A DNA stretch of 64,000 nt from Candidatus Shapirobacteria bacterium. GTDB lineage: Bacteria > Patescibacteriota > Microgenomatia > UBA12405 > BS750m-G30. Position 1 is the stretch's first letter. Every line of letters starts with the position of its first letter. Both the position numbers and the translations under genes were made by a program. Of this stretch, positions 1 to 28,840 are shown in pieces. The stretch lies in assembly GCA_043817235.1 (NCBI GenBank), contig JBDRHA010000011.1, positions 35,223 to 99,222 of the forward strand. Reading direction: 5' to 3'. The notes beneath the pieces were generated by a model that saw only the letters and a program-made list of their open reading frames with translations, was not told where the DNA came from and ran no database searches.

Positions 1-1305
1 GGCGATTCTCAAAATCATAAAGAAATCTCCCACTTTCCAATTCTTTTTTTTAATTAAGTCAAGTGTTTTTTTCTGAAGGATTTCAGTTTTTTCTAAAGCA
101 TATTTTTCTAAAATAATTTTCATATTTTTAAGCATTTCTTTAGCCATCTCTTGCTCTACTTTTTTGATCATCAGCTCTTTTCGCCAGTCAGGATAACTCC
201 AGACAAATTCTAATAAATCCGAAGCTTCGGATAATATTTTTATTCTTTCTTTAACTAGAGGAGAGGCAGCTTGGATCTGTTTTCTGCTCATCTTTGGTAA
301 AAAGGGCCTAAGTAAAGAAGCAAGACCTTGGTTTGTTTTCGATCTAAGATAAACACCGTTTATCCATTCTAGTTTATCAAGATCAAAAGTCGGTGAGACC
401 GGCGAGACATCTTTCAGATCAAAATATTTAATAAATTCTTTTAAAGGAAATATCTCTTTTTCTTTTGGGTGAGACCAACCTAATTGACCTAAATAATTTA
501 AGATCGCCTCAGGCAAAAATCCTTTTTCCCGATAGTAGCTCAAGCTGGCATGATTTTTTCTCTTGCTCAGTTTTCCGCCTGCCGGATCAAGTAAAACCGG
601 AGTATGCAAAAATTGAGGCATTTTCCACTTCAAATAGCGATAAAGTAAAATATGTTTCGGAAAAGAAGGCAGCCATTCATGCCCTCGCACCACATGAGTG
701 ATTTTCATTAAGTGATCGTCCACTAGCGCCGCCAGGTGATAAGTCGGAAAACCATTAGATTTAAGAATAATTTGATCATCGATAAAACGACTGTCAAACT
801 TAATTTTTCCCCTAATTAAATCCTGGCCCATAATTATTTCGTTCTCCGGAATTTTCATCCGCACTACCGCTTTTTCCCCTTTTTTTAATCTCTCCTGAGC
901 CAGTTGGGAATCAAGACCCCGACAATGACGGTCGTACATTGATGGCTTTCCCTTCTTTTGACAACCTTTTCTGATTTTTTCCAGCCTATCTTCAGAACAA
1001 AAGCAATAATAGGCTTTTTTTTGACTGATTAATTTTTGAGCATATTTTTGGTAAATCTCCAGCCTCTCTGATTGCCGATAAGGACCCTCATCAGGGTTTA
1101 AGCCTATCCAGGTCAGTCCCCGGTACAACTGATTTTCGGCATTTTTTACCAAACGTTTTTGATCCGTGTCTTCCAGTCTTAAAATAAAAGATCCTTTGTT
1201 TTTCTTAGCATAAGCAAAGTTCAGCAAGGCGCTATAAATTCCTCCAATATGAATAAATCCGGTGGGAGAGGGAGCAAAACGCGTTCGAATAACTTTATTT
1301 TTCAT
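1..1305 (-). CDS. gltX: glutamyl-tRNA synthetase (partial; C-terminus runs off the left window edge)
   Basis: Minus-strand translation from ATG at 1305-1303 gives MKNKVIRTRFAPSPTGFIHIGG...RLEDTDQKR...HVVRGHEWL...GGKLSKRK (class I GluRS HIGH and KMSKS-type motifs). The frame stays open to position 1. It is absent from the ORF track because it is truncated. Confidence 0.85.
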   Translation of the reverse strand, partial: MKNKVIRTRFAPSPTGFIHIGGIYSALLNFAYAKKNKGSFILRLEDTDQKRLVKNAENQLYRGLTWIGLNPDEGPYRQSERLEIYQKYAQKLISQKKAYYCFCSEDRLEKIRKGCQKKGKPSMYDRHCRGLDSQLAQERLKKGEKAVVRMKIPENEIIMGQDLIRGKIKFDSRFIDDQIILKSNGFPTYHLAALVDDHLMKITHVVRGHEWLPSFPKHILLYRYLKWKMPQFLHTPVLLDPAGGKLSKRKNHASLSYYREKGFLPEAILNYLGQLGWSHPKEKEIFPLKEFIKYFDLKDVSPVSPTFDLDKLEWINGVYLRSKTNQGLASLLRPFLPKMSRKQIQAASPLVKERIKILSEASDLLEFVWSYPDWRKELMIKKVEQEMAKEMLKNMKIILEKYALEKTEILQKKTLDLIKKKNWKVGDFFMILRIA

Positions 1306-18787: not shown

Positions 18788-19819
18788 CTAGTCTTTTTTC
18801 TGGACCAAGCTAATTACTTCTTTGGTGACCTTTTCCGTAAATGAGGAGTTTTTTTCCAAGTGGTCTTTGGTTGCCTCCCGTCCCTGGCCTAAGTTTTCTT
18901 TTTTATACTTAAAAAATGACCCGGATTTGGTTATTACATTATATTTTAAAGCCATATCCAAAATACACCCCGATTGAGATACACCACCTACGTTCATAAT
19001 TTCGAATTCGGCATCTTTAAAAGGCGGAGCAACTTTGTTTTTGACTACTCTAGCTCGATGGGTACTGCCAATTACTATCCCCTCGGCATCTTTAATGTTG
19101 CCGGTTTTGCGTAAATCAATGCGCACCGAAGAATAAAACTTTAAAGCCATGCCGCCGGAAGTTGTTTCCGGGTTGCCAAAGAATACGCCTATTTTATGGC
19201 GAATTTGATTGGTAAAAATAACTGCTGTTTTAGACTTAGCAATTGCTCCGGTCAATTTGCGCAGCGCCTGAGACATTAACCTCGCCTGAACACCCACCAT
19301 AGCATCGCCCATTTCTCCTTCAATCTCTGCTCGGGGAACTAAAGCAGCTACTGAATCAACAACTACTAAATCAAGCCCTCCCGAACGAACCAAGGTTTCT
19401 ACAATTTCCAAACCCTGTTCGCCCGTATCCGGCTGGGAAATTAATAAGTCATCAAGCTTGACTCCAATCTGTTCTGCCCGCTGTGGATTTAAAGCGTGCT
19501 CAGCATCCACGAAAGCGGCCACACCTTTCTTTTTTTGCGCCTCGGCAATAACATGCAGACAAACCGTAGTTTTTCCTGAAGCTTCAGGCCCATAAATTTC
19601 CGATACTCGACCGCGGGGAATGCCTCCGACGCCCAAAGCCAAATCTAAAGTCAGACAGCCAGTAGAAATAGCCGGAACATCAACTGCTTTTTGGTCGCCC
19701 AACTTCATAATCGCACCCTTGCCGTACTGTTTTTCAATCTGCTCCATGGCTATTTTAACCGCCTGCAGTTTCTGTTTTTGAATATTACTATTACCCGAAG
19801 ACATAATCAATTTAACCAT
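18788..19819 (-). CDS. recA: recombinase RecA
   Basis: Walker [10 protein letters not shown], and ...[19 protein letters not shown]. Full-length RecA. Confidence 0.9.
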
Positions 19820-19856: not shown

Positions 19857-19871
19857 AACGGAGCGTGGCGC
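19857..19871 (+). repeat. 15-nt direct repeat AACGGAGCGTGGCGC (copy 1), a duplicate of the tRNA-Pro 5' end, followed by a GC-rich hairpin (19872-19911)
   Basis: Identical to 20161-20175. It is followed by CGCGCCCGC...GCGGGCGGG and then AATTGGCAAGC, which resembles the tRNA D-loop AATTGGCTAGC. Confidence 0.7.
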
Positions 19872-19925
19872 CGCGCCCGCTAACGCCTGAGCGTAGCGAT
19901 GGCGGGCGGGTAATTGGCAAGCACT

Positions 19926-20162
19926 ATGTATATTACCTATGTTTTAAAAAGTAAAAAAGATAATAAGTTATACATCGGATACACTAAGAATATAGAAGCA
20001 AGACTAGAAGAACACAATCACGGATTGGTCAATGCAACGAAAAATAGAAGGCCGTTCGAAGTAGTTTATTTCGAAGCATGCAGAAACAAACATAAAGCTT
20101 TACAAAGAGAAAAATATTTTAAAACAGGTTTTGGAAGAAGATTTTTGAAAACAAGAATTTAA
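19926..20162 (+). CDS. small GIY-YIG nuclease family protein (COG2827-like)
   Basis: MYITYVLKSKKDNKLYIGYTKNIEARLEEHNHG is a GIY-YIG/URI domain. Start set at ATG 19926 (the ORF track begins at TTG 19914). Confidence 0.7.
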   Translation: MYITYVLKSKKDNKLYIGYTKNIEARLEEHNHGLVNATKNRRPFEVVYFEACRNKHKALQREKYFKTGFGRRFLKTRI

Positions 20163-20175
20163 CGGAGCGTGGCGC
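20161..20175 (+). repeat. 15-nt direct repeat copy 2 (overlaps the GIY-YIG stop codon and the tRNA-Pro 5' end)
   Basis: Exact match to 19857-19871; the two copies are 304 bp apart. Confidence 0.7.
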
Positions 20176-20236
20176 AATTGGCTAGCGCGTTCGGATGGGG
20201 TCCGAAAGGCTGCGGGTTCAAATCCCGCCGCTCCGA
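20163..20236 (+). tRNA. tRNA-Pro (anticodon GGG), CCA not encoded
   Basis: Hand fold: acceptor CGGAGCG/CGCUCCG with the C1-G72 pair typical of tRNA-Pro; D-stem GCGC/GCGC; anticodon stem UUCGG/CCGAA; loop AUGGGGU (U33, G37); T-arm GCGGG-UUCAAAU-CCCGC; discriminator A. Confidence 0.75.
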
Positions 20237-20263
20237 CACATGTTTTAAGATATATAATAAGTT

Positions 20264-22135
20264 ATGGATCAAACTGAAGGACAACCTAAGTTCGAGATTC
20301 AAGCAGTAATTGAACAAAAACCATTTGCAGCCAGAACCGCAAGGTCTTTTTTTAGCAAATGGTGCGAAATAAATAGCTCTATTCAGCCAGAATTTATTGA
20401 CCGAGAGACGTGGGAAGCAAGAAACCAAGAAGGCATCTTGGAAGAAAGATCGGGCGGAAAACAGGTTCTTTTTATTCCTAAAGATTTACATCTTTGGGAA
20501 ATGATCGGGGTAATGGAAGCCATAGACAACTCTACCTTCGCCGCAAAACTGGAAAGACGAACTGAAGCAAAAGAGAAATTATTAAAGCTTGGAAAAAATT
20601 TTCAAGATGCCGGGGCTTACATTGCCCAACGATTAGGCGGAATTAACGAAGGCAAGGGCATAGCAGAGGCACTTGCTCTGGAATTCTATGGCTATGGACA
20701 GTCTCTAATCTCAGGAAAAAAACCAAAAGATGCTTCTAGTATAGAAGAAATTGCCGCAAGAGAACTCACACCGGAAGAACTAGAGGCAACTGATCGCTTT
20801 CTGACTGGAGAAAGTCTTTATAAATCTCGACAAAAAAGAGCTAAGAACAATCTTGAAAAAGAGCGGCAAAAAACTCTGGCCCAGTTTTTCCGTCTAGCCG
20901 AGAAAGCTTTTACTCTTACCAAGAGAAGCGAACTCCACAAGCCCAGCACAAGGTTAAAACCATGGCAGAGTGACGCACCAATCCATGCTGTATTTCTCGA
21001 AAGAGTGGAAAAAGCAGTAACTCAAAAGATCAAAACTCCCGAAAGAGAGCTCACGGCCGCAGTTTTTCGGCGCGGCCTAGAGAGACTGGCGAGTGAAATG
21101 AGAGAAACCACTGACATGCACGACGAAAGGACCGGAGAAATCACGCCAGGATGGAAAAGAGCTTTAAATAAGTTTCTTGTCAATATTGGGCTTGATCCAA
21201 TCATTGAGCAAAAAAGATTAATGGAAGTGCTCGAGATTCCGAAACTAAGAAACGAATTGAAAGATATCCACCGCTCAGGAGACTCTGTCCAAATAAGCAC
21301 TAAAGAGCGGGAAATTGCTGATAAAATCCAACGAGCAGTATCTGATTTTCCTTATCAAGAGTTTGCAAATAGTCCAGCGAAAATGATCGCTAAAAAATAC
21401 GTCAATTGCGTAGGAGCATCAATGCTGGGAGGCGCTTTAATGAAGGAAGTCGGGTTAAGGTACTTAGTCGCAGATGCGCCCGACCATTCCGTAATCCTTC
21501 TTATAACCAATGACGGAGAAGTTGAATTGCGAGACATGGGAAGGGTTTCAGGAAATGTAAAGTTAAAAGATGAAATGATTAAAAAGCAAAAAGAAGATGG
21601 CAGTCTTCTTGCCGTAAAAGACATTGTGGCCTTCAGCCTTAACCCTTCGCCTAAAGGGTTAAGGTTTGATGTTATCAGCCCGGTTTATCGTATTATTTTC
21701 CCCTGGGTGCAAGCAATTGATCGGCCATATTTGACTGTATTCGGGCCTGAACACGGAGAACAAGCTCAGGTATTAGGAAATACTGCTAACACTTTTTGGT
21801 CCATACTTAATTTCGAAAAAAGCACTGAAGGTTATCGTCGGGTTATAGCAACTGATCCGAATAAAAGTACGGTATATTTTAATTTGGGTCTTGCTTTTTA
21901 CGCTCACAGTCGGGAGAAAGAAGCAATAAAATTTTTTCGGCAAGCATTAGTTATTAATCCCAAGTTTGCAGATGCTTACTATGAACTAGCCCAGGTCTTC
22001 CAATCTTATAAGCGCTATCAGGAAGCAGCTGAAACATACCGGGAATTTATTGGTCTAGCAGATGAAAATAGAGATAAAAGAAAAATAAAAAGAGCTAAGC
22101 GAATGATTGCTAAATTAGCAAAAAGATCTAATTAA
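20264..22135 (+). CDS. hypothetical 623-aa protein: transglutaminase-like Cys-His-Asp core plus C-terminal TPR repeats
   Basis: KYVNCVGASMLGGALMKEVGLRYLVADAPDHSVILLITNDGEVELRD resembles the C...H...D core of transglutaminase-like peptidases (inference). The C-terminal YFNLGLAFYAHSREKEAIKFFRQALVINPKFADAYYELAQVF are TPR repeats. Confidence 0.5.
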   Translation: MDQTEGQPKFEIQAVIEQKPFAARTARSFFSKWCEINSSIQPEFIDRETWEARNQEGILEERSGGKQVLFIPKDLHLWEMIGVMEAIDNSTFAAKLERRTEAKEKLLKLGKNFQDAGAYIAQRLGGINEGKGIAEALALEFYGYGQSLISGKKPKDASSIEEIAARELTPEELEATDRFLTGESLYKSRQKRAKNNLEKERQKTLAQFFRLAEKAFTLTKRSELHKPSTRLKPWQSDAPIHAVFLERVEKAVTQKIKTPERELTAAVFRRGLERLASEMRETTDMHDERTGEITPGWKRALNKFLVNIGLDPIIEQKRLMEVLEIPKLRNELKDIHRSGDSVQISTKEREIADKIQRAVSDFPYQEFANSPAKMIAKKYVNCVGASMLGGALMKEVGLRYLVADAPDHSVILLITNDGEVELRDMGRVSGNVKLKDEMIKKQKEDGSLLAVKDIVAFSLNPSPKGLRFDVISPVYRIIFPWVQAIDRPYLTVFGPEHGEQAQVLGNTANTFWSILNFEKSTEGYRRVIATDPNKSTVYFNLGLAFYAHSREKEAIKFFRQALVINPKFADAYYELAQVFQSYKRYQEAAETYREFIGLADENRDKRKIKRAKRMIAKLAKRSN

Positions 22136-22875
22136 GCCAACTGGATATAGGTAATATTTCTATCCCCAAAATAGGATACTAGAGAATCTTTGTCGTGAGA
22201 AACAGAAGTAAAATCAATCCCAGTACATTTATTCTCAACCAATGCTTGTTTCGCTTTATCGTTTACATAAAACCCAATCGGGTTGACTACGGTTGGAGAA
22301 AAAAACAAATCCAAGTCTTTATATAGTCCCGATTTTATAGCTAAGATTTCCGCCCAAACTTGGGTAACCTCTTTGGTATTCAAACTTTCTTTATCGGCTC
22401 TCATCACTTCTTTTGCCGAATTTAAATTTAATTGTTTTAACTTTTTTTTCGATATTACTTCAATCAGCCAAAATTTAGATTTTTTAAAGTCAATTTGTTT
22501 TAAATGCTCCTTTTGCTCGATAACCTGAAAGGCATTATAGCCGCCAATCTTTTTTCCCCTCTGTTTTAAGATAACCGAATGAATCTGATAAGGTGGTAAT
22601 TTTAAACCTAAAAAAATCTTTAGTAGTTTGTTACTAACAACTAAAACAGAGGGATTAAGAGGCACACAGCTAATAAGATCAGTTAAAGTTGCCCCGTCTA
22701 TTACCTCCAAATAGTTAAAATTTGGCTTAAGGTTAGGAAATTTAATCTGATTAAGTTTATAAACTGAATCAGGTGCGTTTTTATCGTAGTCCGGACTCAT
22801 TTTTCGGCATTGAGGATAGGGAGCCCTGCCAATTCCGGTTAATGAATGCTTTAGCAAATAGATCGCTGACTTCAT
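22132..22875 (-). CDS. hypothetical protein (247 aa)
   Basis: Long ORF with a complex composition, convergent with the TPR gene and overlapping it by 4 nt. No recognisable family. Confidence 0.45.
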   Translation of the reverse strand: MKSAIYLLKHSLTGIGRAPYPQCRKMSPDYDKNAPDSVYKLNQIKFPNLKPNFNYLEVIDGATLTDLISCVPLNPSVLVVSNKLLKIFLGLKLPPYQIHSVILKQRGKKIGGYNAFQVIEQKEHLKQIDFKKSKFWLIEVISKKKLKQLNLNSAKEVMRADKESLNTKEVTQVWAEILAIKSGLYKDLDLFFSPTVVNPIGFYVNDKAKQALVENKCTGIDFTSVSHDKDSLVSYFGDRNITYIQLA

Positions 22876-22927
22876 AGCCTAATTTTCCCAAAACCTAACT
22901 GCCCTTGTCAATTATCAAACTAAAGCT

Positions 22928-22953
22928 TATCTCTTCAGAGATTGCTTTTTCCC
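22928..22953 (+). repeat. copy (a) of the rpsI 3'-end sequence (att-like core)
   Basis: TATCTCTTCAGAGATTGCTTTTTCCC. The minus strand reads GKKQSLKR-stop, against rpsI KKKQSPKR-stop, and matches 28003-28030 at 24 of 28 positions. Confidence 0.65.
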
Positions 22954-22990
22954 TTTTCAAAAAAACTCTGATTTTGATAAAATTAACTGA

Positions 22991-23936
22991 ATGAAAAAAA
23001 TTTTATTAATTGATGCTGACGGCATAGTAATTGAGCCACGCGATAGGTATTTTAGCGAAAAGTTTTCTGAAGAATATAATGTTCCTCTTGAAAAAATTCT
23101 TCCATTTTTTAAAAACGAGTATAAAAAGGCATCTTTAGGAAAGATTGATCTAAGAAAAGCCTTACCGGCTTACCTCAAAAGGTGGGGGCTGGAAAAAAAG
23201 CGTGAATGACTTTCTTGAATACTGGTTTGAGAGTGAAAAGAAAGTAGACAAACAAATAATAAGCCTGGTAGATAATTTAAGAAAAAGAGGCATTAAGTGC
23301 TATCTTGTTTCTGATAACGAAAAAAGAAGAACAGAGTATTTATGGGACAATTTAAATTTAAAAAATCATTTTGATGGTGCTTTTTCCTCCTCTGCCTCAG
23401 GGGTCACAAAATCGGAAAAATCCTTTTTCCAAAAAATATTAACCAAGTTATCAGCGACACCCTCTGAAATAATTTACTGGGACGATGATCTTAAAAACGT
23501 TAAGACTGGAAAAGCAGCAGGGATAGAATCTTATTTTTACAAAGATTTTGGGGAATTTATTAGAAGGTTAGACAAAGTATTACCTAAAGTAATGAAAAAA
23601 GTTATGGCCTTCAATAGTGATGATTTTTATTGCGATCTAGTTTTTAGCAAGAAAATTAAAGTGAAAATTGTTAAAGAAACAAAAGAACTATTAGCTTTTT
23701 ATCATACTCGGCCAAGCTGGTCGACTCATATCGTAATTGTCCCCAAAAAACATATTGCTAAACTTACAGACGTAAAAGACATGAATCTGATTAAAGAAAT
23801 TTTTTCTATTGCTAAAGAAATTATTATCGAAAATGATTGGGATAATAAAAACTTCAAAATAATTTCGAATGGCGGAACTTTTCAAGATTCCGAACATCTT
23901 CATTTTCATCTCGTTTCCGGAAAGAAAATAAGATAG
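22991..23936 (+). CDS. HAD-IA hydrolase fused to a HIT-family hydrolase, split by a frameshift near 23202
   Basis: ORF1 carries HAD motif I (LLIDADGIV). ORF2 carries HAD motifs II-IV (YLVSDN, K, WDDD) and then a HIT domain with the histidine triad HLHFHLV. The two ORFs overlap by 8 nt at GGAAAAAAAGCG. The second frame is open from about 23150, so a 1-nt indel would fuse them. Confidence 0.5.
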
Positions 23937-23963
23937 ATCAGAGGAGATTGCTTTTTCTTTCTA
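23937..23963 (+). repeat. copy (b) of the rpsI 3'-end sequence (att-like core, degenerate)
   Basis: ATCAGAGGAGATTGCTTTTTCTTTC. The minus strand reads KKKQSP.., and GGAGAtTGCTTTTTCTT matches the rpsI end. Confidence 0.55.
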
Positions 23964-23991
23964 TTACTATTAACAATAACTTTTGTTAAAA

Positions 23992-23997
23992 TTGACA
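23992..23997 (+). promoter_or_regulatory. TTGACA -35-like box upstream of the dinD-like gene
   Basis: AATTGACA lies about 30 nt downstream of repeat (b). No canonical -10 at 17-nt spacing. Confidence 0.2.
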
Positions 23998-24043
23998 GGT
24001 GAAAATTACCTAAGCTTTGGAGGAGTTATTTCGAAACGATTTA

Positions 24044-24886
24044 ATGAAAAAATCAAATTCGATCATCTTATTCAAACAGAAAAAAATTCGTCGCACTTGG
24101 GACGAACAAAAGGAACTATGGTATTTCTCGATTGTTGATGTTGTTGGTATATTGACTGGTAGCCCAAGACCACGAAAATACTGGAATGCTCTTAAAACAA
24201 AGCTAAAAGAGGAAGGAAGTGAGTTGCCCCAAAAAGTGGGACAACTGAAATTAAAATCATCTGACGGAAAAAAATATTTTACAGATGTCGCTGTTGTAGA
24301 AACTCTTTTAAGACTGATTCAATCAATTCCATCGCCTAAAGCTGAGCCATTTAAGGTATGACTGGCTAAAGTGGGTTATGAAAGAATTGAAGAGACCGAA
24401 GATCCTGAGCGTGCAATAGATAGAGCGATGAAAACTTATTTGCAAAAAGGATACTCAAAAGAATGGATAAATCAGCGATTAAAAAGCATTGAAGTCAGAA
24501 AAGAACTTACCGATGAATGGCAAGACAGAAAGATGAAAGAGGGACTGGAATGCGCAATATTGACAGATGAAATTACAAAAGCTTGGGCTGACAAAAGCGT
24601 TAGAACTTATAAAAAGTTCAAGGGCCTAAAAAGAGAAAATCTGCGGGATAATATGACAAATTTGGAGTTGATTCTCAATATGCTGGCAGAGGCCCCTACA
24701 ACGGAAATATCTAAAAAGCAACTGCCGAGGGGGCAAAAATAAAAATGATCAGTAGCCCGCAAAGGTGGCTGCGCAGCCAAGAAAGCAAGACTTGAAATTG
24801 AAAAACAAACTGGAGAAAAAGTTGTTAGCCCTAAAAATGCTAAACGTTTACACGGGAAAGAATCAAAGAAATTACCAACAAACTAA
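24044..24886 (+). pseudogene. DNA-damage-inducible protein D (DinD)-like gene with three in-frame stop codons
   Basis: A single frame encodes a DinD-like N-terminus (TWDEQKELWYFSIVDVVGIL...). After TGA at 24359-24361 comes ..YSKEWINQRLKSIEVRKELTDEW..LKGLKRENLRDNMTNLELI..EAPTTEI, and after TAA 24740 and TGA 24746 comes ..ARKGGCAAKKARLEIEKQTGEKVVSPKNAK. There are no frameshifts. ORF-track pieces are 24017..24361 and 24371..24742. Confidence 0.6.
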
Positions 24887-24912
24887 TTTACCTCTTCGGA
24901 GATTTTTTTAAT
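24887..24912 (+). repeat. copy (c) of the rpsI 3'-end sequence (att-like core)
   Basis: AATTTACCTCTTCGGAGATTTTTTTA. TTACCTCTTCGGAGA is identical to the rpsI end, and the minus strand reads ..KSPKR-stop. Confidence 0.6.
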
Positions 24913-24919
24913 AGACTAA

Positions 24920-24948
24920 TTGACAAAATTTTACAGGAAAGATAAACT
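24920..24948 (+). promoter_or_regulatory. sigma70-like promoter TTGACA-N17-TAAACT upstream of the DUF3160-like gene
   Basis: TTGACA at 24920-24925, a 17-nt spacer, TAAACT at 24943-24948, and ATG at 24963. Confidence 0.4.
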
Positions 24949-24962
24949 GGGTTCATACCTCT

Positions 24963-27287
24963 ATGACTATGGAAGATCAAAATTATAATCAGATTGTGCC
25001 GGAAAATCTTCAAACCGCGCCACCCATTGTTCCTAAACCAAAAAACAAGAAAAAGTTTTTTATAGTTTCAGGAATTTTAGGAACTCTAATAATTACTTTT
25101 CTAGCCTTTTACTTGGGGCAGTTAAGCCGGGAAACATTAAAGGAAGCCCCTCAAAACACTAATAATCCAGCTTCTATTTTGACTGCTAATTTCGCTACCT
25201 ATGAAGAAATACCGGTAAACATCAACCCGAAAATCCCGCCTTATTCGGTCAGCCAAGACCTGAGCAATGTTTTAAATGCAGAAGATTTTACTTTTTCTTC
25301 AGAAGTGAAAGATTTATTAGTAAAAAACGCCTTTGCTGTAAGACCAGCTCACAACGACGAGTTTTTCTCGCTTTACGAGTCAAATCGCTATAACTACACA
25401 CCGAATTTCATTACTACTGATTCCATGATCCATAATTACCACTTGATGTTCGATTTCTTGCTAAAACAGCTTGAGGAGCAAAAACTTGCAGATGAGCTAA
25501 AACAGTTAAGCGCGAATATGCTTTCTGAGTCATTAAGTCAACATAGTAGTTTGAAAGGAACAGAATGGGAAAATGCCGCGAAAAGGAATGTCGGATTTTT
25601 CACTGTCGGCAGTAAACTTCTGGACCCATCGCTAGCCGTTCCTTCCCTTGTCACAAATGAGGTAAACCAAGAACTAACTCTTATCGAAGCTCATCAGAAC
25701 ATAGAGAAGTCGCCTGTAATGAGTATTGGCAGCGCCAATAATACTATGATCGATACCCCGCAAGGACTACAATCACTAGAGGCGCTAAAAGAAGATTATT
25801 CCCAATATATACCTCGTGGACATTATGACAAAACAGAACAGCTAAAAGCCTATTTTAAGTCAATGATGTGGTATGGACGTCTAACTTTCAGAATGAAAAA
25901 TGATGATGAAATAAAATCAGCCTTACTTATCACTTTGGCTCTCAGCAAAGAGGACAATCAAAACAGCTGGAATAAGATTTACGAGCCGGTGAATTTCTTT
26001 GTGGGCAAGAGCGATGACATTACGTATTATCAATTAAAGGATTTAGTAGAAAAAGTTTACGGTACGAATGCGACAATTCAATTGGTAGCAAATGATAAAA
26101 ATAAACTTGCCTCTTTCATTGACGAAACTAAAAATTTGGAACCACCGCAAATAAATTCCATACCCATTTTTGAAGCTTCAATCCAAGCCGATAGAGAAAA
26201 AGAAATTAAGGGGTTTCGCTTTATGGGGCAAAGATTCACTATCGATGCTTCTATCTTTCAACGACTAGTTTATCGGGAAGTTGGCGATAAAACTAAATCT
26301 TGTCAAGAATTTAAACCAAACGAAACAGGCTGCCTGCAAGGAGCGCGGTGTCTTCCTAAAGGGCTAGATATCCCTGCGACTCTAGGATCAAACGAGGCTA
26401 AAAATACATTGAAAGGATTAGGTGAAACCAGCTATTCTTGCTACTCGGAAAACATGGCCAAAATGAACGAGTACATTACCAGTCTTAATACAGAGACCTG
26501 GACTCAAAACTTATATTGGGGTTGGCTATATCAACTTCGCCCGCTCCTTGATGAAAAATTGAGCGGTTATCCAAGTTTTATGCAAAACACCGCCTGGCTA
26601 AGAAAAGATCTCAGCGCGTTTTTGGGGAGTTGGACAGAATTGAAGCATGATACCATACTTTACGCAAAACAAGTTTATGCCGAGTTTGGCGGAGGCCTTA
26701 TCGAAGAAAAAGACGATCGCGGTTATGTTGAGCCGAATCCTTTTGTTTACGCGCGTCTTGCTTCACTTCTGAGAATGACAAGCGAAGGACTAGAAATACG
26801 AGGATTATTAACAACAAGCATGAAAGATAATTTAAGCAAATTGGAACAATTAGCAGTGTCGCTCAAAATAATATCGGAAAAAGAATTGAATAATGAAGAA
26901 TTAACTAACGAAGAATACGAGCTTATTCGCTCGTATGGTGGGCAATTAGAGCATTTTTGGCTGGAAGTTAACAAAGATGAAGCAACCTTCAAAGAGTCTA
27001 CCAGTCAAGAAGACTACCTAAACGAGAATCCGGCTGCCATTGTGGCGGATGTTGCTACTGACCCGAATGGAAGAGTACTAGAAGAGGGCACTGGTAATAT
27101 TTTTGAGATCTTTGTCGTAATTCCGATTGATGGTAAATTAAGAATTGCCAAAGGCGGTGTTTATTCCTACTACGAGTTTACTTGGCCTCTCTCAGAGAGA
27201 CTAACTGACAAGAAATGGCGAGAAATAATTGACTCCGACCAAACCCCCCAGCTACCGGAATGGACTAATAATTATATAGCCCAGTAG
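24963..27287 (+). CDS. large membrane-anchored extracytoplasmic protein (DUF3160-like)
   Basis: 774 aa with an N-terminal TM helix and a large domain with conserved Cys pairs. It resembles DUF3160 proteins; family assignment from memory only. Confidence 0.45.
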   Translation: MTMEDQNYNQIVPENLQTAPPIVPKPKNKKKFFIVSGILGTLIITFLAFYLGQLSRETLKEAPQNTNNPASILTANFATYEEIPVNINPKIPPYSVSQDLSNVLNAEDFTFSSEVKDLLVKNAFAVRPAHNDEFFSLYESNRYNYTPNFITTDSMIHNYHLMFDFLLKQLEEQKLADELKQLSANMLSESLSQHSSLKGTEWENAAKRNVGFFTVGSKLLDPSLAVPSLVTNEVNQELTLIEAHQNIEKSPVMSIGSANNTMIDTPQGLQSLEALKEDYSQYIPRGHYDKTEQLKAYFKSMMWYGRLTFRMKNDDEIKSALLITLALSKEDNQNSWNKIYEPVNFFVGKSDDITYYQLKDLVEKVYGTNATIQLVANDKNKLASFIDETKNLEPPQINSIPIFEASIQADREKEIKGFRFMGQRFTIDASIFQRLVYREVGDKTKSCQEFKPNETGCLQGARCLPKGLDIPATLGSNEAKNTLKGLGETSYSCYSENMAKMNEYITSLNTETWTQNLYWGWLYQLRPLLDEKLSGYPSFMQNTAWLRKDLSAFLGSWTELKHDTILYAKQVYAEFGGGLIEEKDDRGYVEPNPFVYARLASLLRMTSEGLEIRGLLTTSMKDNLSKLEQLAVSLKIISEKELNNEELTNEEYELIRSYGGQLEHFWLEVNKDEATFKESTSQEDYLNENPAAIVADVATDPNGRVLEEGTGNIFEIFVVIPIDGKLRIAKGGVYSYYEFTWPLSERLTDKKWREIIDSDQTPQLPEWTNNYIAQ

Positions 27288-27316
27288 ACAAATTTATTAC
27301 CATTACGAAAAGATGG

Positions 27317-27997
27317 ATGCAAAGAAAAATCGCAGGGTCAATTTTATTATCTTTCGTTTTTGTTGCTATCCTTTGGGGTTGTAAGCACTATTACCGAAGG
27401 CATTTTCCCTACTCATCAGTTTATTTTGGCAATAGCATTGCTTCAAAAAAAGAAATGGCTGACCTGGATAATAATTCCAGTCCAGAGACTTATTGTCTTG
27501 AAAACGGACGTCTGACCATCAAGGAAAATACAAAAACTGTTTGGCAATCACCCCTTGAGTGGCAGATAGATGATTTTGTTATTGAAGATTCTAATAACGA
27601 TGGCGTCTTGGATATAAATTTATCTCTTTGGAAACCAGGAAATTTTGGCACATCAAGGCCATTTTGGGTTGAAGAAAACGACATGAGCGTAAAAAATCAT
27701 TTTTTCGTTTTAGATTTTATTAACGGTTCGACAAAACAAATTTGGGGCTCTTCTAGTCTCAGTGAGCCAAATTGCGAATTTCAAATCGCTGATATTGATA
27801 ATGATGGAAAAAATGATTTGATCGTAATCGAAGGAGACTATTCCCAAAAACCAGATTGTAACGGAAATTATCTTGCTGTTTGGAAATGGAACGGCTGGGG
27901 ATTTTCAAATGAGTGGCGAAGTGAAAAAGGAAATTTTTCTCACTTTGAGATTGAAAAAATTGATGAAAAAGAGTACATTATCGCAAATCCGCCATGA
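27317..27997 (+). CDS. secreted/membrane-anchored protein with FG-GAP/calcium-binding-like DxDxDG repeats
   Basis: N-terminal TM/signal; DSNNDGVLDINLSLW and DIDNDGKNDLIVIEGDY motifs. Confidence 0.45.
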   Translation: MQRKIAGSILLSFVFVAILWGCKHYYRRHFPYSSVYFGNSIASKKEMADLDNNSSPETYCLENGRLTIKENTKTVWQSPLEWQIDDFVIEDSNNDGVLDINLSLWKPGNFGTSRPFWVEENDMSVKNHFFVLDFINGSTKQIWGSSSLSEPNCEFQIADIDNDGKNDLIVIEGDYSQKPDCNGNYLAVWKWNGWGFSNEWRSEKGNFSHFEIEKIDEKEYIIANPP

Positions 27998-28002
27998 GAA
28001 AC

Positions 28003-28030
28003 TTACCTCTTCGGAGACTGCTTTTTCTTG
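28003..28030 (+). repeat. copy (d): the authentic rpsI 3' end, reference copy of the repeated core
   Basis: TTACCTCTTCGGAGACTGCTTTTTCTTG encodes ..KKKQSPKR-stop on the minus strand. Confidence 0.65.
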
Positions 28031-28413
28031 CGGGCGCGGCCCATTTGCCCAGCTTTTCTTCTCTCTCTTATTCGCGAATCAACCGTGAGCAAGCCCTTCT
28101 CGCGCATGAGAGGCCTATAAACACCTTCGTTATACTTTACTAAAGCCCGAGCTAATGATAAAGATATTGCTTCTGCCTGGCTTTTAAAGCCGCCGCCTCT
28201 TACCCAAAAATAGCCATAAAACTTTCCTTGGCATTCACCGGCAATTAAAGGTTTTTCATAAATTGCCCTTAGTCTTTCGCCGGGAAAATATTTGGCAATT
28301 GGCCTTTGATTAACTGTAAATTCTCCCTTCCCTTCAAATAAGCGAAGGGTGGCCGAAGCCTCTTTTCTTCTTCCTTTGGAATATATGTATTTTTTCTTTC
28401 TGCCTTTAGCCAT
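28003..28413 (-). CDS. rpsI: 30S ribosomal protein S9
   Basis: Ends ..RRKAGQMGRARKKKQSPKR. Start set at MAKGRKK (ORF track 28461). Confidence 0.85.
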   Translation of the reverse strand: MAKGRKKKYIYSKGRRKEASATLRLFEGKGEFTVNQRPIAKYFPGERLRAIYEKPLIAGECQGKFYGYFWVRGGGFKSQAEAISLSLARALVKYNEGVYRPLMREKGLLTVDSRIRERRKAGQMGRARKKKQSPKR

Positions 28414-28840
28414 TGTCTTTTGCTTTAACAAACTCCATTTTAGCGTAAGGGTGCTTGTCATCTTTGTAAACCTTTAATCTCGTCATTCTTTTTTTTCTTA
28501 GTTTATTTTTCGGAAGCATCCCCCAAACCGCTTTTTCAATTACCATCTTGGGGTTTTTTTCTTTTAAATCTTTTAAGCTAATTTCTTTAATCCCTCCCGG
28601 GTAGCCGGTATAGTGCTGATAAAGCTTGTCTTTAAGCTTATTGCCGGTCACTCTAATTCTTGAGGCGTTAATAACGACTACATTGTCTCCTTGGTCCAGG
28701 TGATAGCTAAAAGAAGTTCTGTGTTTGCCCATAAGCAGTAAAGCAACTTGGCTGGCAAATCGGCCCAAGATTTCCCCTTTGGCGTCTAAAAGATGCCAAT
28801 TTCTTTCTCCTTTTTTCTTTTTACTATGCACTGTTTTCAT
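28406..28840 (-). CDS. rplM: 50S ribosomal protein L13
   Basis: NWHLLDAKGEILGRFAS...YHLDQGDNVVVINA is the L13 signature. Confidence 0.85.
   Translation of the reverse strand: MKTVHSKKKKGERNWHLLDAKGEILGRFASQVALLLMGKHRTSFSYHLDQGDNVVVINASRIRVTGNKLKDKLYQHYTGYPGGIKEISLKDLKEKNPKMVIEKAVWGMLPKNKLRKKRMTRLKVYKDDKHPYAKMEFVKAKDNG

What the first reader, a model, noticed from the sequence alone, without database searches (positions are those of the whole stretch)
20264..27997. A ~7.7 kb accessory island between recA/tRNA-Pro and rpsI with decaying cargo and no integrase
Everything from the TPR/transglutaminase-like gene to the FG-GAP-like gene is non-housekeeping, wedged between two highly conserved loci. 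It contains a frameshifted gene and a multiply nonsense-interrupted gene. It is bounded on one side by a tRNA with a mobile insert and on the other by repeated rpsI-end cores. This is an integration hotspot accreting cargo over time; the cargo (surface or extracytoplasmic proteins, a DinD-like gene, a putative peptidase) hints at phage or plasmid origin.
Basis: inference. Interest (0 to 1): 0.6.

Follow-up and report, generated by a model that had tools for sequence, protein, structure and literature searches.

The report
Decaying gene island beside rpsI
This is a real patchwork of foreign, partly broken genes that piled up in several steps next to a ribosomal protein gene in a tiny uncultured bacterium; it is an ordinary kind of gene-gain hotspot, notable only because small leftover copies of the ribosomal gene's end record the steps.

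Summary
The window comes from a Candidatus Shapirobacteria MAG. In six related genomes that reach the junction, the block ...rpoA-rplQ-rplM-rpsI sits next to recA-recX-rny. The junction holds nothing (64 bp) or different genes each time. Only the window carries these about 8 kb.

Cargo:
- a TPR protein with an invariant Cys/His/Asp triad
- an Imm11-family immunity protein
- a HAD-HIT fusion, frameshifted in an A7 run
- a DinD/Bro-N gene with three in-frame stops
- DUF3160
- a CapA/FG-GAP partner that has lost its whole CapA domain in frame

There is no recombinase, and only 331 nt are non-coding.

Three relics of the last 15-25 nt of rpsI lie in the spacers between cargo modules. The outermost still carries the ancestral rpsI downstream spacer. 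I read this as serial insertion at the rpsI stop codon, each event regenerating the gene end, followed by decay.

The closest known analogue is tandem accretion of integrative elements and their decayed remnants at the 3' end of rpsI in streptococci.

Phage or plasmid ancestry is supported only for the DinD-like pseudogene; the other cargo looks like ordinary chromosomal CPR genes.

Verdict: a new member of a known kind, of modest interest.

The parts
18788..19819 (-). recA, the conserved left flank (context, not part of the island)
   Evidence: Pfam-type identity and 100% match to a Candidatus Shapirobacteria RecA. recA-recX-rny-HU synteny is shared with L089-L092, L096 and L181.
19859..19912 (+). 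Displaced 5' fragment of tRNA-Pro (CGGAGCGTGGCGC, 19859-19871) followed by a 40-nt GC-rich hairpin. To its left is the ancestral tRNA-recA spacer.
   Evidence: Exact 13-nt duplicate of tRNA positions 1-13. The spacer is homologous to L091. Hairpin -17.4 kcal/mol, z -1.4.
19914..20162 (+). 82-aa GIY-YIG nuclease ORF, a small cassette inserted in the 5' part of the tRNA-Pro gene. It is the lowest-GC gene in the window (0.297).
   Evidence: PF01541 E=3e-18. Absent from the tRNA-recA spacer of L091, L096 and L181. GC z=-3.9.
20163..20237 (+). tRNA-Pro(GGG), with its 3' end pointing into the island. It is present upstream of recA in 3 of the 6 other related genomes, so it is ancestral to this subclade.
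   Evidence: ARAGORN and Rfam. tRNA-Pro(GGG) occurs in the same position in L091, L092/L096 and L181. No relic of its 3' end lies in the island.
20264..22135 (+). 623-aa protein: N-terminal helical region, a central domain with invariant Cys382/His408/Asp424 (papain/transglutaminase-like by inference) and C-terminal TPR repeats
   Evidence: TPR Pfam hits at residues 500-610. About 100 full-length homologues at 35-54% identity, named Paceibacterota, Yanofskybacteria, Nealsonbacteria or Parcubacteria, in ordinary chromosomal contexts. Invariant columns. AF2 model pLDDT 75, with Cys at a helix start and His/Asp on the following strands. No phage or plasmid match.
22132..22875 (-). 247-aa Imm11-family (polymorphic-toxin immunity) protein, an orphan with no toxin partner nearby
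   Evidence: No direct Pfam hit. 320 related clusters. 17 of 25 relatives match PF07791 Imm11. GC 0.343, below all 54 core genes.
22876..22951 (-). Relic B: the displaced original rpsI 3' end (22927-22951, reads KKQSLKR*) together with about 50 nt of the ancestral rpsI downstream spacer (22876-22926)
   Evidence: 22/25 identity to 28003-28027, with 0 of 100 shuffles matching. Translation. The spacer aligns with the rpsI downstream spacers of L090 and L091.
22991..23936 (+). HAD phosphatase-HIT fusion gene, split by a frameshift in an A7 run (23193-23199). It has its own promoter-like site at 22954-22983.
   Evidence: PF00702/PF13419 and PF01230 hits. Frames. Promoter scan. GC 0.316, z=-3.2. 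No viral relatives.
23939..23962 (-). Relic D: partial rpsI 3' end (reads KKKQSP..), starting 2 nt after the HAD-HIT stop codon
   Evidence: 20 nt match the L090 rpsI end at 18/20 and the window's own rpsI end at 17/20 (my count of the sequences).
24017..24886 (+). DinD/Bro-N-family pseudogene with three in-frame stops (24359-61 TGA, 24740-42 TAA, 24746-48 TGA)
   Evidence: Both halves hit phrog_15286, E 2.5e-36 and 1e-54. PF02498 Bro-N. 63% aa identity to an Arcobacter plasmid Bro-N gene, with the first stop at a conserved Trp. 158 relatives in IMG/VR.
24888..24902 (-). Relic C: the stop-proximal 15 nt of rpsI (reads ..SPKR*), 1 nt after the DinD stop codon
   Evidence: 15/15 identity to 28003-28017.
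24963..27287 (+). DUF3160 protein (774 aa), the first gene of a conserved DUF3160 + CapA-like pair
   Evidence: PF11369 E=7e-233. 73-79% identical homologues in many CPR lineages, always followed by a 578-580-aa PGA_cap protein but in different neighbourhoods. The same pair occurs on Deinococcus megaplasmids at 36-39%. No phage match.
27317..27997 (+). Remnant of the CapA(PGA_cap)+FG-GAP partner gene. The signal anchor is fused in frame to the C-terminal FG-GAP-like domain, and about 355 codons of the CapA domain are deleted.
   Evidence: 73% identity to residues 393-578 of the 580-aa partner. The N-terminus MQRKI..YY is also conserved. PF13517.
28003..28461 (-). rpsI. Its last 25-27 nt (28003-28029, KKKQSPKR*) are the current, functional copy (A) of the repeated core. 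This is the conserved right flank.
   Evidence: rplQ-rplM-rpsI synteny with L001 and L089-L091.

Best explanation
The segment from about 19872 to 28002 is the variable content of a chromosomal gene-gain hotspot. It sits at the junction between the ribosomal protein operon (ending in rpsI) and tRNA-Pro/recA, in a Candidatus Shapirobacteria genome.

It was assembled by at least five separate events.

(i) Three insertions occurred at the rpsI stop-codon region.
- They brought in HAD-HIT, then the DinD-like gene, then the DUF3160 + CapA-like pair.
- Each module carries its own promoter-like sequence.
- Each event regenerated the end of rpsI and pushed the previous rpsI terminus outward. This left relics B, D and C.

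(ii) The TPR and Imm11 genes were inserted between the old rpsI 3' spacer and the 3' end of tRNA-Pro.

(iii) A GIY-YIG cassette was inserted into the 5' part of tRNA-Pro. It regenerated the tRNA and left a 13-nt duplicate.

The duplicated 15-25(+)-nt gene ends are the signature of site-specific or short-homology recombination of a circular intermediate with the gene end. This is the process known as tandem accretion at the 3' end of rpsI in streptococci. Here every recombination and transfer gene is absent, so the enzyme must act from elsewhere or has been lost.

Most cargo comes from other CPR lineages. One gene, the DinD-like one, belongs to a family that travels on phages and plasmids.

The cargo is now eroding through nonsense codons, one possible frameshift and one in-frame domain deletion.

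Shown: the variability of the spot, the relics and their rpsI origin, the pseudogenes, and the absence of mobility genes.
Inferred: the order of events, the circular intermediate and the type of recombinase.
For: Synteny. Six related genomes reach this junction (L181 and the L092/L096 organism stop before rpsI). RecA is 67-82% identical.
- L090 has 64 bp between rpsI and recA.
- L089 has ndk.
- L091 has a 137-aa gene plus tRNA-Pro.
- L001 has a 176-aa ORF that reads as NYN-like by eye.
- L096 has RadC-like, MazG-like, DUF2075-like and HAD-like ORFs (named by eye from the translations) plus tRNA-Pro.
- L181 has a glycosyltransferase-like ORF (by eye) and a PIG-L gene plus tRNA-Pro.

No window cargo gene is found in these loci or in the rest of the window.

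Relics.
- The rpsI terminal 25-mer recurs 3 times, only inside the island, on the same strand, always in spacers. Expected matches are 0.00 and 0.06.
- The relics translate as KKQSLKR*, KKKQSP.. and ..SPKR*.
- Of 62 gene ends tested, only rpsI has such a copy.
- Relic B keeps about 50 nt of the ancestral rpsI downstream spacer, homologous to L090 and L091.
- The stops of HAD-HIT, DinD and FG-GAP lie 1-5 nt from a relic or from rpsI.
- Relatives with a single gene have no relics.

Mosaic origin.
- Gene GC ranges from 0.30 to 0.41. GIY-YIG, HAD-HIT and Imm11 lie below all 54 core genes. The tetranucleotide z-score reaches 3.5.
- The best TPR homologues are only 54% identical and are named as Parcubacteria-type.
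- DUF3160 is 73-79% identical across proteins named as CPR3, Kuenenbacteria and Parcubacteria. The best RecA relative is 82% identical.
- The DinD-like gene is 63% identical to an Arcobacter plasmid gene.

Decay.

Precedent. The 3' end of rpsI is a tyrosine-integrase target with tandem accretion of decayed elements (PMC5357655, PMC5704250). Many hotspots lack integrases (PMC5635113). Genomic islands are common in Patescibacteria (PMC12455944).
Against: - No recombinase is present in the island or in the syntenic flanks, so the enzymatic step is unproven.
- The relics differ in which part of the core they keep. C keeps the stop-proximal 15 nt and D keeps the gene-internal 20 nt. A single fixed att core does not predict this.
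- The relics share GAGATT where the live rpsI has GAGACT. They may therefore derive from other rpsI alleles or from one another.
- The modules are far smaller (1-3 kb, one or two genes) than any described IME or ICE. Only 331 nt of spacer remain, so decay of large elements would have had to trim very precisely.
- The core was not found on any viral contig or next to DinD or DUF3160 homologues elsewhere.
- Composition and codon usage of the two largest genes are indistinguishable from the core.
- Only one genome shows the array.
- The comparison genomes are 18-33% diverged in RecA. No strain-level empty or intermediate site was seen.
Confidence: 0.7

Rival explanations
1. The hotspot turns over purely by homologous recombination in the flanking core genes (rpsI, recA/tRNA-Pro) after DNA uptake from related cells, with no site-specific step. 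The rpsI-end copies are by-products of sloppy short-homology or Campbell-type crossovers with donor fragments that carried their own rpsI ends.
For: Half of bacterial hotspots lack any mobile element, and their flanking core genes recombine more often (PMC5635113). Every relative has different cargo at the same spot, so donors with 'cargo next to rpsI' exist. Relics B, C and D carry variants (GAGATT; AGAAAG in D) that match other rpsI alleles such as L090 better than the resident one. recA is adjacent. No recombinase is present.
Against: Double-crossover replacement would swap cargo and would not stack it with duplicated 15-25-nt gene ends. Such short duplicated segments are poor substrates for RecA. 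None of the cargo genes was seen next to rpsI in any other genome examined.
Confidence: 0.2
2. The region is the remnant of one larger integrative element (prophage, ICE or IME) that entered at the tRNA-Pro 3' end or at rpsI and then lost its integrase and structural or transfer genes.
For: It lies next to a tRNA 3' end, the classical target. One gene belongs to a phage-associated family. The cargo is decaying. An Imm11 immunity gene and a DinD-like gene are typical island cargo.
Against: There are three internal rpsI-end relics and a mosaic GC (0.30-0.41), which argue for several events. There is no tRNA 3' repeat. There are no PHROG structural, integrase, relaxase or replication hits. The DUF3160-CapA pair and the TPR gene are ordinary chromosomal genes in other CPR genomes. 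Only 331 nt of non-coding DNA are left to hold remnants.
Confidence: 0.05
3. The genes are ancestral to the lineage and were lost in the relatives, so the pattern reflects differential loss rather than gain.
For: CPR genomes are strongly reductive. TPR, DUF3160 and DinD have core-like GC and codon usage. The nearest sampled relative is only 82% identical in RecA.
Against: Seven genomes have seven non-overlapping gene sets at the spot, including a 64-bp empty site. The displaced rpsI end with its ancestral spacer shows that DNA was inserted between rpsI and its former downstream sequence. The closest TPR homologues carry names of another CPR class.
Confidence: 0.03
4. The island is a metagenome-assembly chimera, with foreign CPR contig pieces joined between rpsI and tRNA-Pro.
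For: The source is a MAG. The DUF3160 pair is highly similar among co-occurring CPR lineages. The frameshift sits in a homopolymer.
Against: The window lies inside a 336,659-bp contig, and both flanks are syntenic with relatives. The junctions carry lineage-specific rpsI-end copies and the ancestral spacer, which a chimera would not create. The repeats are only 15-25 nt, which I judge shorter than common assembly k-mers.
Confidence: 0.02

Closest known systems
Tandem accretion of IMEs/ICEs and their decayed derivatives (CIMEs, cis-mobilizable elements) at the 3' end of rpsI in streptococci (IMESag-rpsI and the Tyr_4/5/7 integrase families; PMC5090054, PMC5357655, PMC5704250)
   Same: The target gene and position are the same: the 3' end of the S9 gene, with the gene end regenerated. 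The direct repeats contain the rpsI terminus. Several units are stacked in the same orientation, and older att copies are displaced outward. The units lack integration and transfer genes, as defined for CIMEs, and carry accessory cargo.
   Different: No integrase, relaxase or replication gene is present anywhere in the array. The units are 1-3 kb and hold one or two genes, against 5-18 kb for IMEs. The host is a CPR bacterium, for which I know of no described conjugative helpers (from memory; not searched here). The relics are unequal fragments of the core rather than uniform att sites. Excision was not tested.
Integrase-free horizontal-transfer hotspots between syntenic core genes (Oliveira et al. 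2017, PMC5635113)
   Same: The accessory content is flanked by conserved core genes and differs in each related genome. There is no recognisable mobile element. It lies near a tRNA and a highly expressed operon. Defence- or immunity-type cargo is present.
   Different: That model invokes homologous recombination in the flanks and predicts replacement. Here scars of gene-end duplication show additive insertion at a defined point.
tRNA-linked genomic islands
   Same: The island starts directly after the 3' end of a tRNA gene.
   Different: There is no integrase and no direct repeat of the tRNA 3' end. The only tRNA duplication is 13 nt of the 5' end, and it belongs to the GIY-YIG cassette.
Integron cassette arrays and clusters of attC sites lacking an integrase (CALINs)
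   Same: The modules are small and mostly co-oriented, hold one or two genes, and are separated by a recurring short sequence. No local integrase is present.
   Different: The recurring sequence is a copy of rpsI coding sequence, not an attC. The spacers show no attC-like imperfect hairpin. The modules have their own promoter-like sites.

Membership tests
Chromosomal HGT hotspot / variable spot between core genes | Flanked on both sides by core genes that are syntenic in related genomes | tested here: met
   rpoA-rplQ-rplM-rpsI and recA-recX-rny-HU are conserved in L001 and L089-L091. The recA side is also conserved in L092, L096 and L181.
Chromosomal HGT hotspot / variable spot between core genes | Accessory gene content differs between related genomes at the same spot | tested here: met
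   Seven genomes have seven different contents, one of them empty (64 bp). No shared cargo by tblastn.
Integrative element at the 3' end of rpsI (streptococcal IME/ICE type) | Insertion at the 3' end of rpsI with the gene end regenerated and direct repeats containing that end | tested here: met
   Relics at 22927-22951, 23939-23962 and 24888-24902 are copies of 28003-28029. Relic B retains the ancestral downstream spacer.
Integrative element at the 3' end of rpsI (streptococcal IME/ICE type) | Encodes its own tyrosine or serine integrase | tested here: not met
   Pfam, PHROG and NCBIfam scans of the nine ORFs of at least 70 aa that fill the segment show no recombinase. Only 331 nt are non-coding.
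Integrative element at the 3' end of rpsI (streptococcal IME/ICE type) | Mobilisation module (relaxase/oriT) or conjugation module | tested here: not met
   No relaxase, coupling-protein or T4SS family hit. oriT was not searched.
CIME (cis-mobilizable element: att sites kept, integration and transfer genes lost) | Bounded by attL/attR-like repeats while lacking recombination and transfer genes | tested here: met
   The HAD-HIT, DinD and DUF3160-pair modules each lie between two rpsI-end copies and have no mobility genes.
CIME (cis-mobilizable element: att sites kept, integration and transfer genes lost) | Derived from a decayed ICE/IME and mobilisable in cis by an incoming element | not testable with these tools
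   This needs excision or transfer assays, or population read data. No remnant of mobility genes is left to show descent.
tRNA-targeting genomic island | Direct repeat of the tRNA 3' end at the distal boundary, plus an integrase | tested here: not met
   No approximate copy of the tRNA-Pro 3' half or middle occurs in the window. No integrase.
Integron cassette array / CALIN | attC sites: imperfect inverted repeats of 57-141 nt that fold as hairpins | tested here: not met
   Spacer folds are not better than shuffles on either strand, z from -1.9 to +1.1. The repeat is rpsI coding sequence.
Prophage remnant | Phage structural, packaging, lysis or replication genes, or several phage-family hits | tested here: not met
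   Only the DinD/Bro-N pseudogene has a specific PHROG and viral relatives. HAD-HIT hits generic HAD and HIT PHROGs, and TPR hits only through its repeats.

The most novel reading that the evidence does not exclude
The three relic-bounded units may not be wrecks of larger elements. They may be natively tiny, promoter-bearing gene cassettes of one or two genes that a recombinase encoded elsewhere in the genome (or in a co-resident element) inserts at the rpsI stop codon. Each insertion would regenerate the gene end. That would be an integrase-unlinked cassette-accretion system in CPR bacteria, analogous in logic to integrons but using the end of a ribosomal protein gene as the docking site. The GIY-YIG cassette that regenerates the 5' end of tRNA-Pro, and the NYN-like ORF in L001 flanked by a 23-nt repeat of a promoter-like sequence just upstream of recA, would be further examples of the same target-regenerating insertion.
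Probability: 0.12. Interest if true: 0.7.

Novelty: new member of a known kind. Interest (0 to 1): 0.35.

Why it matters
It gives a concrete, well-delimited example of how a streamlined CPR genome gains and then loses genes. The empty site and alternative fillings are available in related genomes, and built-in scars order the events. It also shows that the end of rpsI, a documented docking site for integrative elements in streptococci, is used in a very distant lineage. That suggests convergent targeting of a conserved, essential gene end.

If the units prove to be trans-mobilised cassettes, this would point to an undescribed gene-capture route in bacteria whose mobile elements are poorly known. 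As it stands, it is an ordinary hotspot island with an unusually legible history.

Tried and rejected
Only L001 was useful.

2. The exact look-up of the window RecA failed because the called start codon differs. The source genome was recovered through the homologue search instead.

3. The metagenome scan with a RecX alignment first failed. It then gave a single locus, L096.

4. Integron reading: the spacers do not fold like attC sites. Rejected.

5. tRNA-att reading: no tRNA 3' relic. Rejected.

6. Terminator reading of the repeats. The hairpin is 3-5 bp, is not picked up by the terminator scan, and the copies retain rpsI coding sequence and the downstream spacer. Rejected as the primary explanation, although a secondary terminator role for the + strand genes is not excluded.

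7. Toxin-immunity pair reading for TPR + Imm11. The two genes are convergent, and the TPR homologues checked in three loci have no neighbour called Imm11; the hypothetical neighbours were not themselves tested. Not supported.

8. Alternative genetic code for the TGA stops. A TAA stop is also present, and all other genes read normally in table 11. Rejected.

9. Rfam found only the tRNA.

11. The core was searched for in viral contigs and in all fetched loci. It is found only at the rpsI ends of relatives.

Full report
**What is there**

The window is part of a 336,659-bp contig of an NCBI MAG labelled Candidatus Shapirobacteria. RecA and the TPR protein match its records at 100%. GC is 0.40. 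Almost every gene is on the minus strand: rpoB/C, the S10-spc-alpha ribosomal operon, then rplQ, rplM and rpsI ending at 28003.

To the left lie rny, recX and recA on the minus strand. Then, on the plus strand, come an 82-aa GIY-YIG ORF (19914-20162) and tRNA-Pro(GGG) (20163-20237).

All are non-housekeeping.

**The cargo, gene by gene**

- 20264-22135 encodes a 623-aa protein with C-terminal TPR repeats.
  - About 100 full-length homologues exist at 35-54% identity. The named ones are Paceibacterota, Yanofskybacteria, Nealsonbacteria or Parcubacteria. They sit in ordinary chromosomal neighbourhoods.
  - Cys382, His408 and Asp424 are invariant. In the AF2 model they sit at a helix start and on the next two strands.
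- 22132-22875 (minus strand) has no direct Pfam hit. It belongs to a family of 320 clusters, and 17 of 25 sampled members match Imm11.
- 22991-23936 is a HAD-HIT fusion interrupted by a frameshift inside an A7 run. This could be a real mutation or a homopolymer error.
- 24017-24886 is a DinD/Bro-N gene.
  - Its two main pieces match phrog_15286 at E 2.5e-36 and 1e-54.
  - It has three in-frame stops and no frameshift. The first is TGG to TGA at a conserved Trp.
- 24963-27287 is DUF3160 (E=7e-233).
- 27317-27997 is what remains of its invariable partner gene. In the five other CPR contexts examined, DUF3160 is followed 5 nt later by a 578-580-aa PGA_cap(CapA)+FG-GAP protein. In the window, the signal anchor is joined in frame to the last 186 residues and the CapA domain is gone.

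There are thus three decay events, not two.

**Is it an island?**

Yes. I recovered the same chromosomal neighbourhood from six other related genomes (RecA 67-82% identical). The flanks are strongly syntenic, and the junction holds something different every time:

| Locus | Content between rpsI and recA |
|---|---|
| L090 | 64 bp, nothing |
| L089 | ndk |
| L091 | 137-aa gene plus tRNA-Pro |
| L001 | 176-aa ORF that reads as NYN-like by eye |
| L096/L092 | RadC-like, MazG-like, DUF2075-like and HAD-like ORFs (named by eye) plus tRNA-Pro |
| L181 | glycosyltransferase-like ORF (by eye) and PIG-L gene plus tRNA-Pro |

None of the window's cargo genes occurs in these loci or elsewhere in the window.

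Composition gives only partial support.
- The 22.5-25 kb stretch has GC 0.34 and a tetranucleotide z-score of 3.5.
- GIY-YIG (0.297), HAD-HIT (0.316) and Imm11 (0.343) lie below all 54 core genes.
- TPR, DinD and DUF3160 fall within the core range, and synonymous codon usage is not distinctive.
- The unevenness itself argues for several sources.

**The rpsI-end copies**

The last 25 nt of rpsI (28003-28027) recur at three places:
- 22927-22951 (22/25)
- 24888-24902 (15/15)
- 23939-23962 (about 17-20 nt)

They occur only inside the island, on the rpsI strand, and always in spacers. The expected number of matches is 0.00 and 0.06 in shuffles. They still read as S9 C-termini: KKQSLKR*..SPKR* and KKKQSP... 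Of 62 gene ends in the window, only rpsI has such a copy.

The outermost copy (B) is followed by about 50 nt that align with the rpsI downstream spacer of L090 and L091. B is therefore the original rpsI terminus with its original 3' flank, now 5 kb from the gene.

Each plus-strand module ends 1-5 nt from a copy, or from rpsI itself. Each starts with a promoter-like site just after the previous copy. This partitions 22952-28002 into three units: HAD-HIT, DinD, and DUF3160 with its partner.

TPR + Imm11 lie beyond the old spacer, so they entered at a different point.

The GIY-YIG ORF is a further small insertion. The first 13 nt of the tRNA are duplicated at 19859-19871, next to the ancestral tRNA-recA spacer that L091 still shows.

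**Mechanism**

Insertion that regenerates a gene end and displaces the old end outward is the hallmark of integration by recombination between a circular molecule and the gene terminus. The 3' end of rpsI is a documented target of three tyrosine-integrase families of streptococcal IMEs and ICEs. Those elements are often found in tandem accretion with decayed elements. Units that keep att sites but have lost integration and transfer genes are called CIMEs (PMC5357655, PMC5704250, PMC5090054). The window looks like the end state of such accretion in a CPR genome.

The caveats are real.
- No recombinase, relaxase or replication gene is present.
- Only 331 nt are non-coding.
- The units are much smaller than any described IME.
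- The relics keep different parts of the core.
- The relics share GAGATT where the live gene has GAGACT.

A short-homology, Campbell-type route using donor DNA from relatives remains a serious rival; this is the integrase-free hotspot model of PMC5635113. Integron-like attC structure, a tRNA att site and a prophage remnant were each tested and not met.

**Origin of the cargo**

- It shows DNA-level similarity to plasmid and small phage records.
- It is 57-60% identical at protein level to two phage contigs.
- It has 158 relatives in IMG/VR.
- It is 63% identical to an Arcobacter plasmid gene.

DUF3160, the TPR N-terminal part, Imm11 and HAD-HIT gave nothing in viral contigs. DUF3160 and the TPR N-terminal part also gave nothing in the phage records. 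In plasmids, DUF3160 matches only distantly, on Deinococcus megaplasmids, again beside CapA. The TPR N-terminal part has no plasmid match.

**Verdict**

The central interpretation is supported: a hotspot with stepwise accretion, decay and no integrase. The origin claim is mostly unsupported.

This is a new member of a known kind. It is a decayed accretion island at the rpsI end inside a variable spot, in a lineage where such islands are known to be common (PMC12455944). Interest is modest (0.35).

The most novel reading left open is that the units are trans-mobilised mini-cassettes docking at the rpsI stop codon. I give it about 12%.

Noticed in passing
window 19859-20175: The GIY-YIG ORF (82 aa, catalytic domain only) is inserted in the 5' part of tRNA-Pro. 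The first 13 nt of the tRNA (CGGAGCGTGGCGC) are duplicated at 19859-19871. After them come a 40-nt GC-rich hairpin and AATTGGC (tRNA positions 14-20). The intact tRNA follows the ORF. The displaced fragment still abuts the ancestral tRNA-recA spacer seen in L091. This looks like a target-regenerating mini-element.
   Followed up: partly
L001 9238-9260 and 9891-9913: In the relative L001, the single gene between rpsI and recA (a 176-aa ORF that reads as NYN-like by eye) is flanked by a 23-nt direct repeat, GTTGACATTCGGGTAGT(A/T)TTTGG. The repeat contains a TTGACA motif and lies just upstream of recA. It is read directly, and it suggests the same duplicate-the-target style of insertion at this junction.
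   Followed up: no
L096 4082-4376: The tRNA-Pro to recA spacer of this relative holds an extra GC-rich stretch of about 200 nt that is absent from L091 and L181. It has no Rfam match.
   Followed up: partly
window 24963-27997; L081-L087, L098-L100: DUF3160 and a CapA(PGA_cap)+FG-GAP protein form a tightly linked two-gene pair (5-nt gap). The pair is 73-79% identical across CPR lineages named as different classes, which is about as conserved as RecA within Shapirobacteria. Its neighbourhood differs each time, and in L098 an IS-type rve transposase lies nearby. The pairing also exists on Deinococcus megaplasmids. Its function is unknown.
   Followed up: partly
L097 2989-3885 (Arcobacter cloacae plasmid pACLO): The closest annotated relative of the DinD/Bro-N pseudogene sits inside a type I-B CRISPR-Cas operon, between cas4 and cas1b.
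   Followed up: no
window 20230-20245: The window's tRNA-Pro gene does not encode the 3' CCA: the discriminator A is followed by CAC. The tRNA-Pro genes of L091, L096 and L181 all encode CCA. The island's left junction therefore begins exactly at the CCA position.
   Followed up: no
window 20264-27997 versus the rest: Five of the six island genes, plus GIY-YIG and the tRNA, are on the plus strand, while nearly all of the 54 core genes in the window are on the minus strand. The cumulative GC skew reverses only across the island.
   Followed up: no
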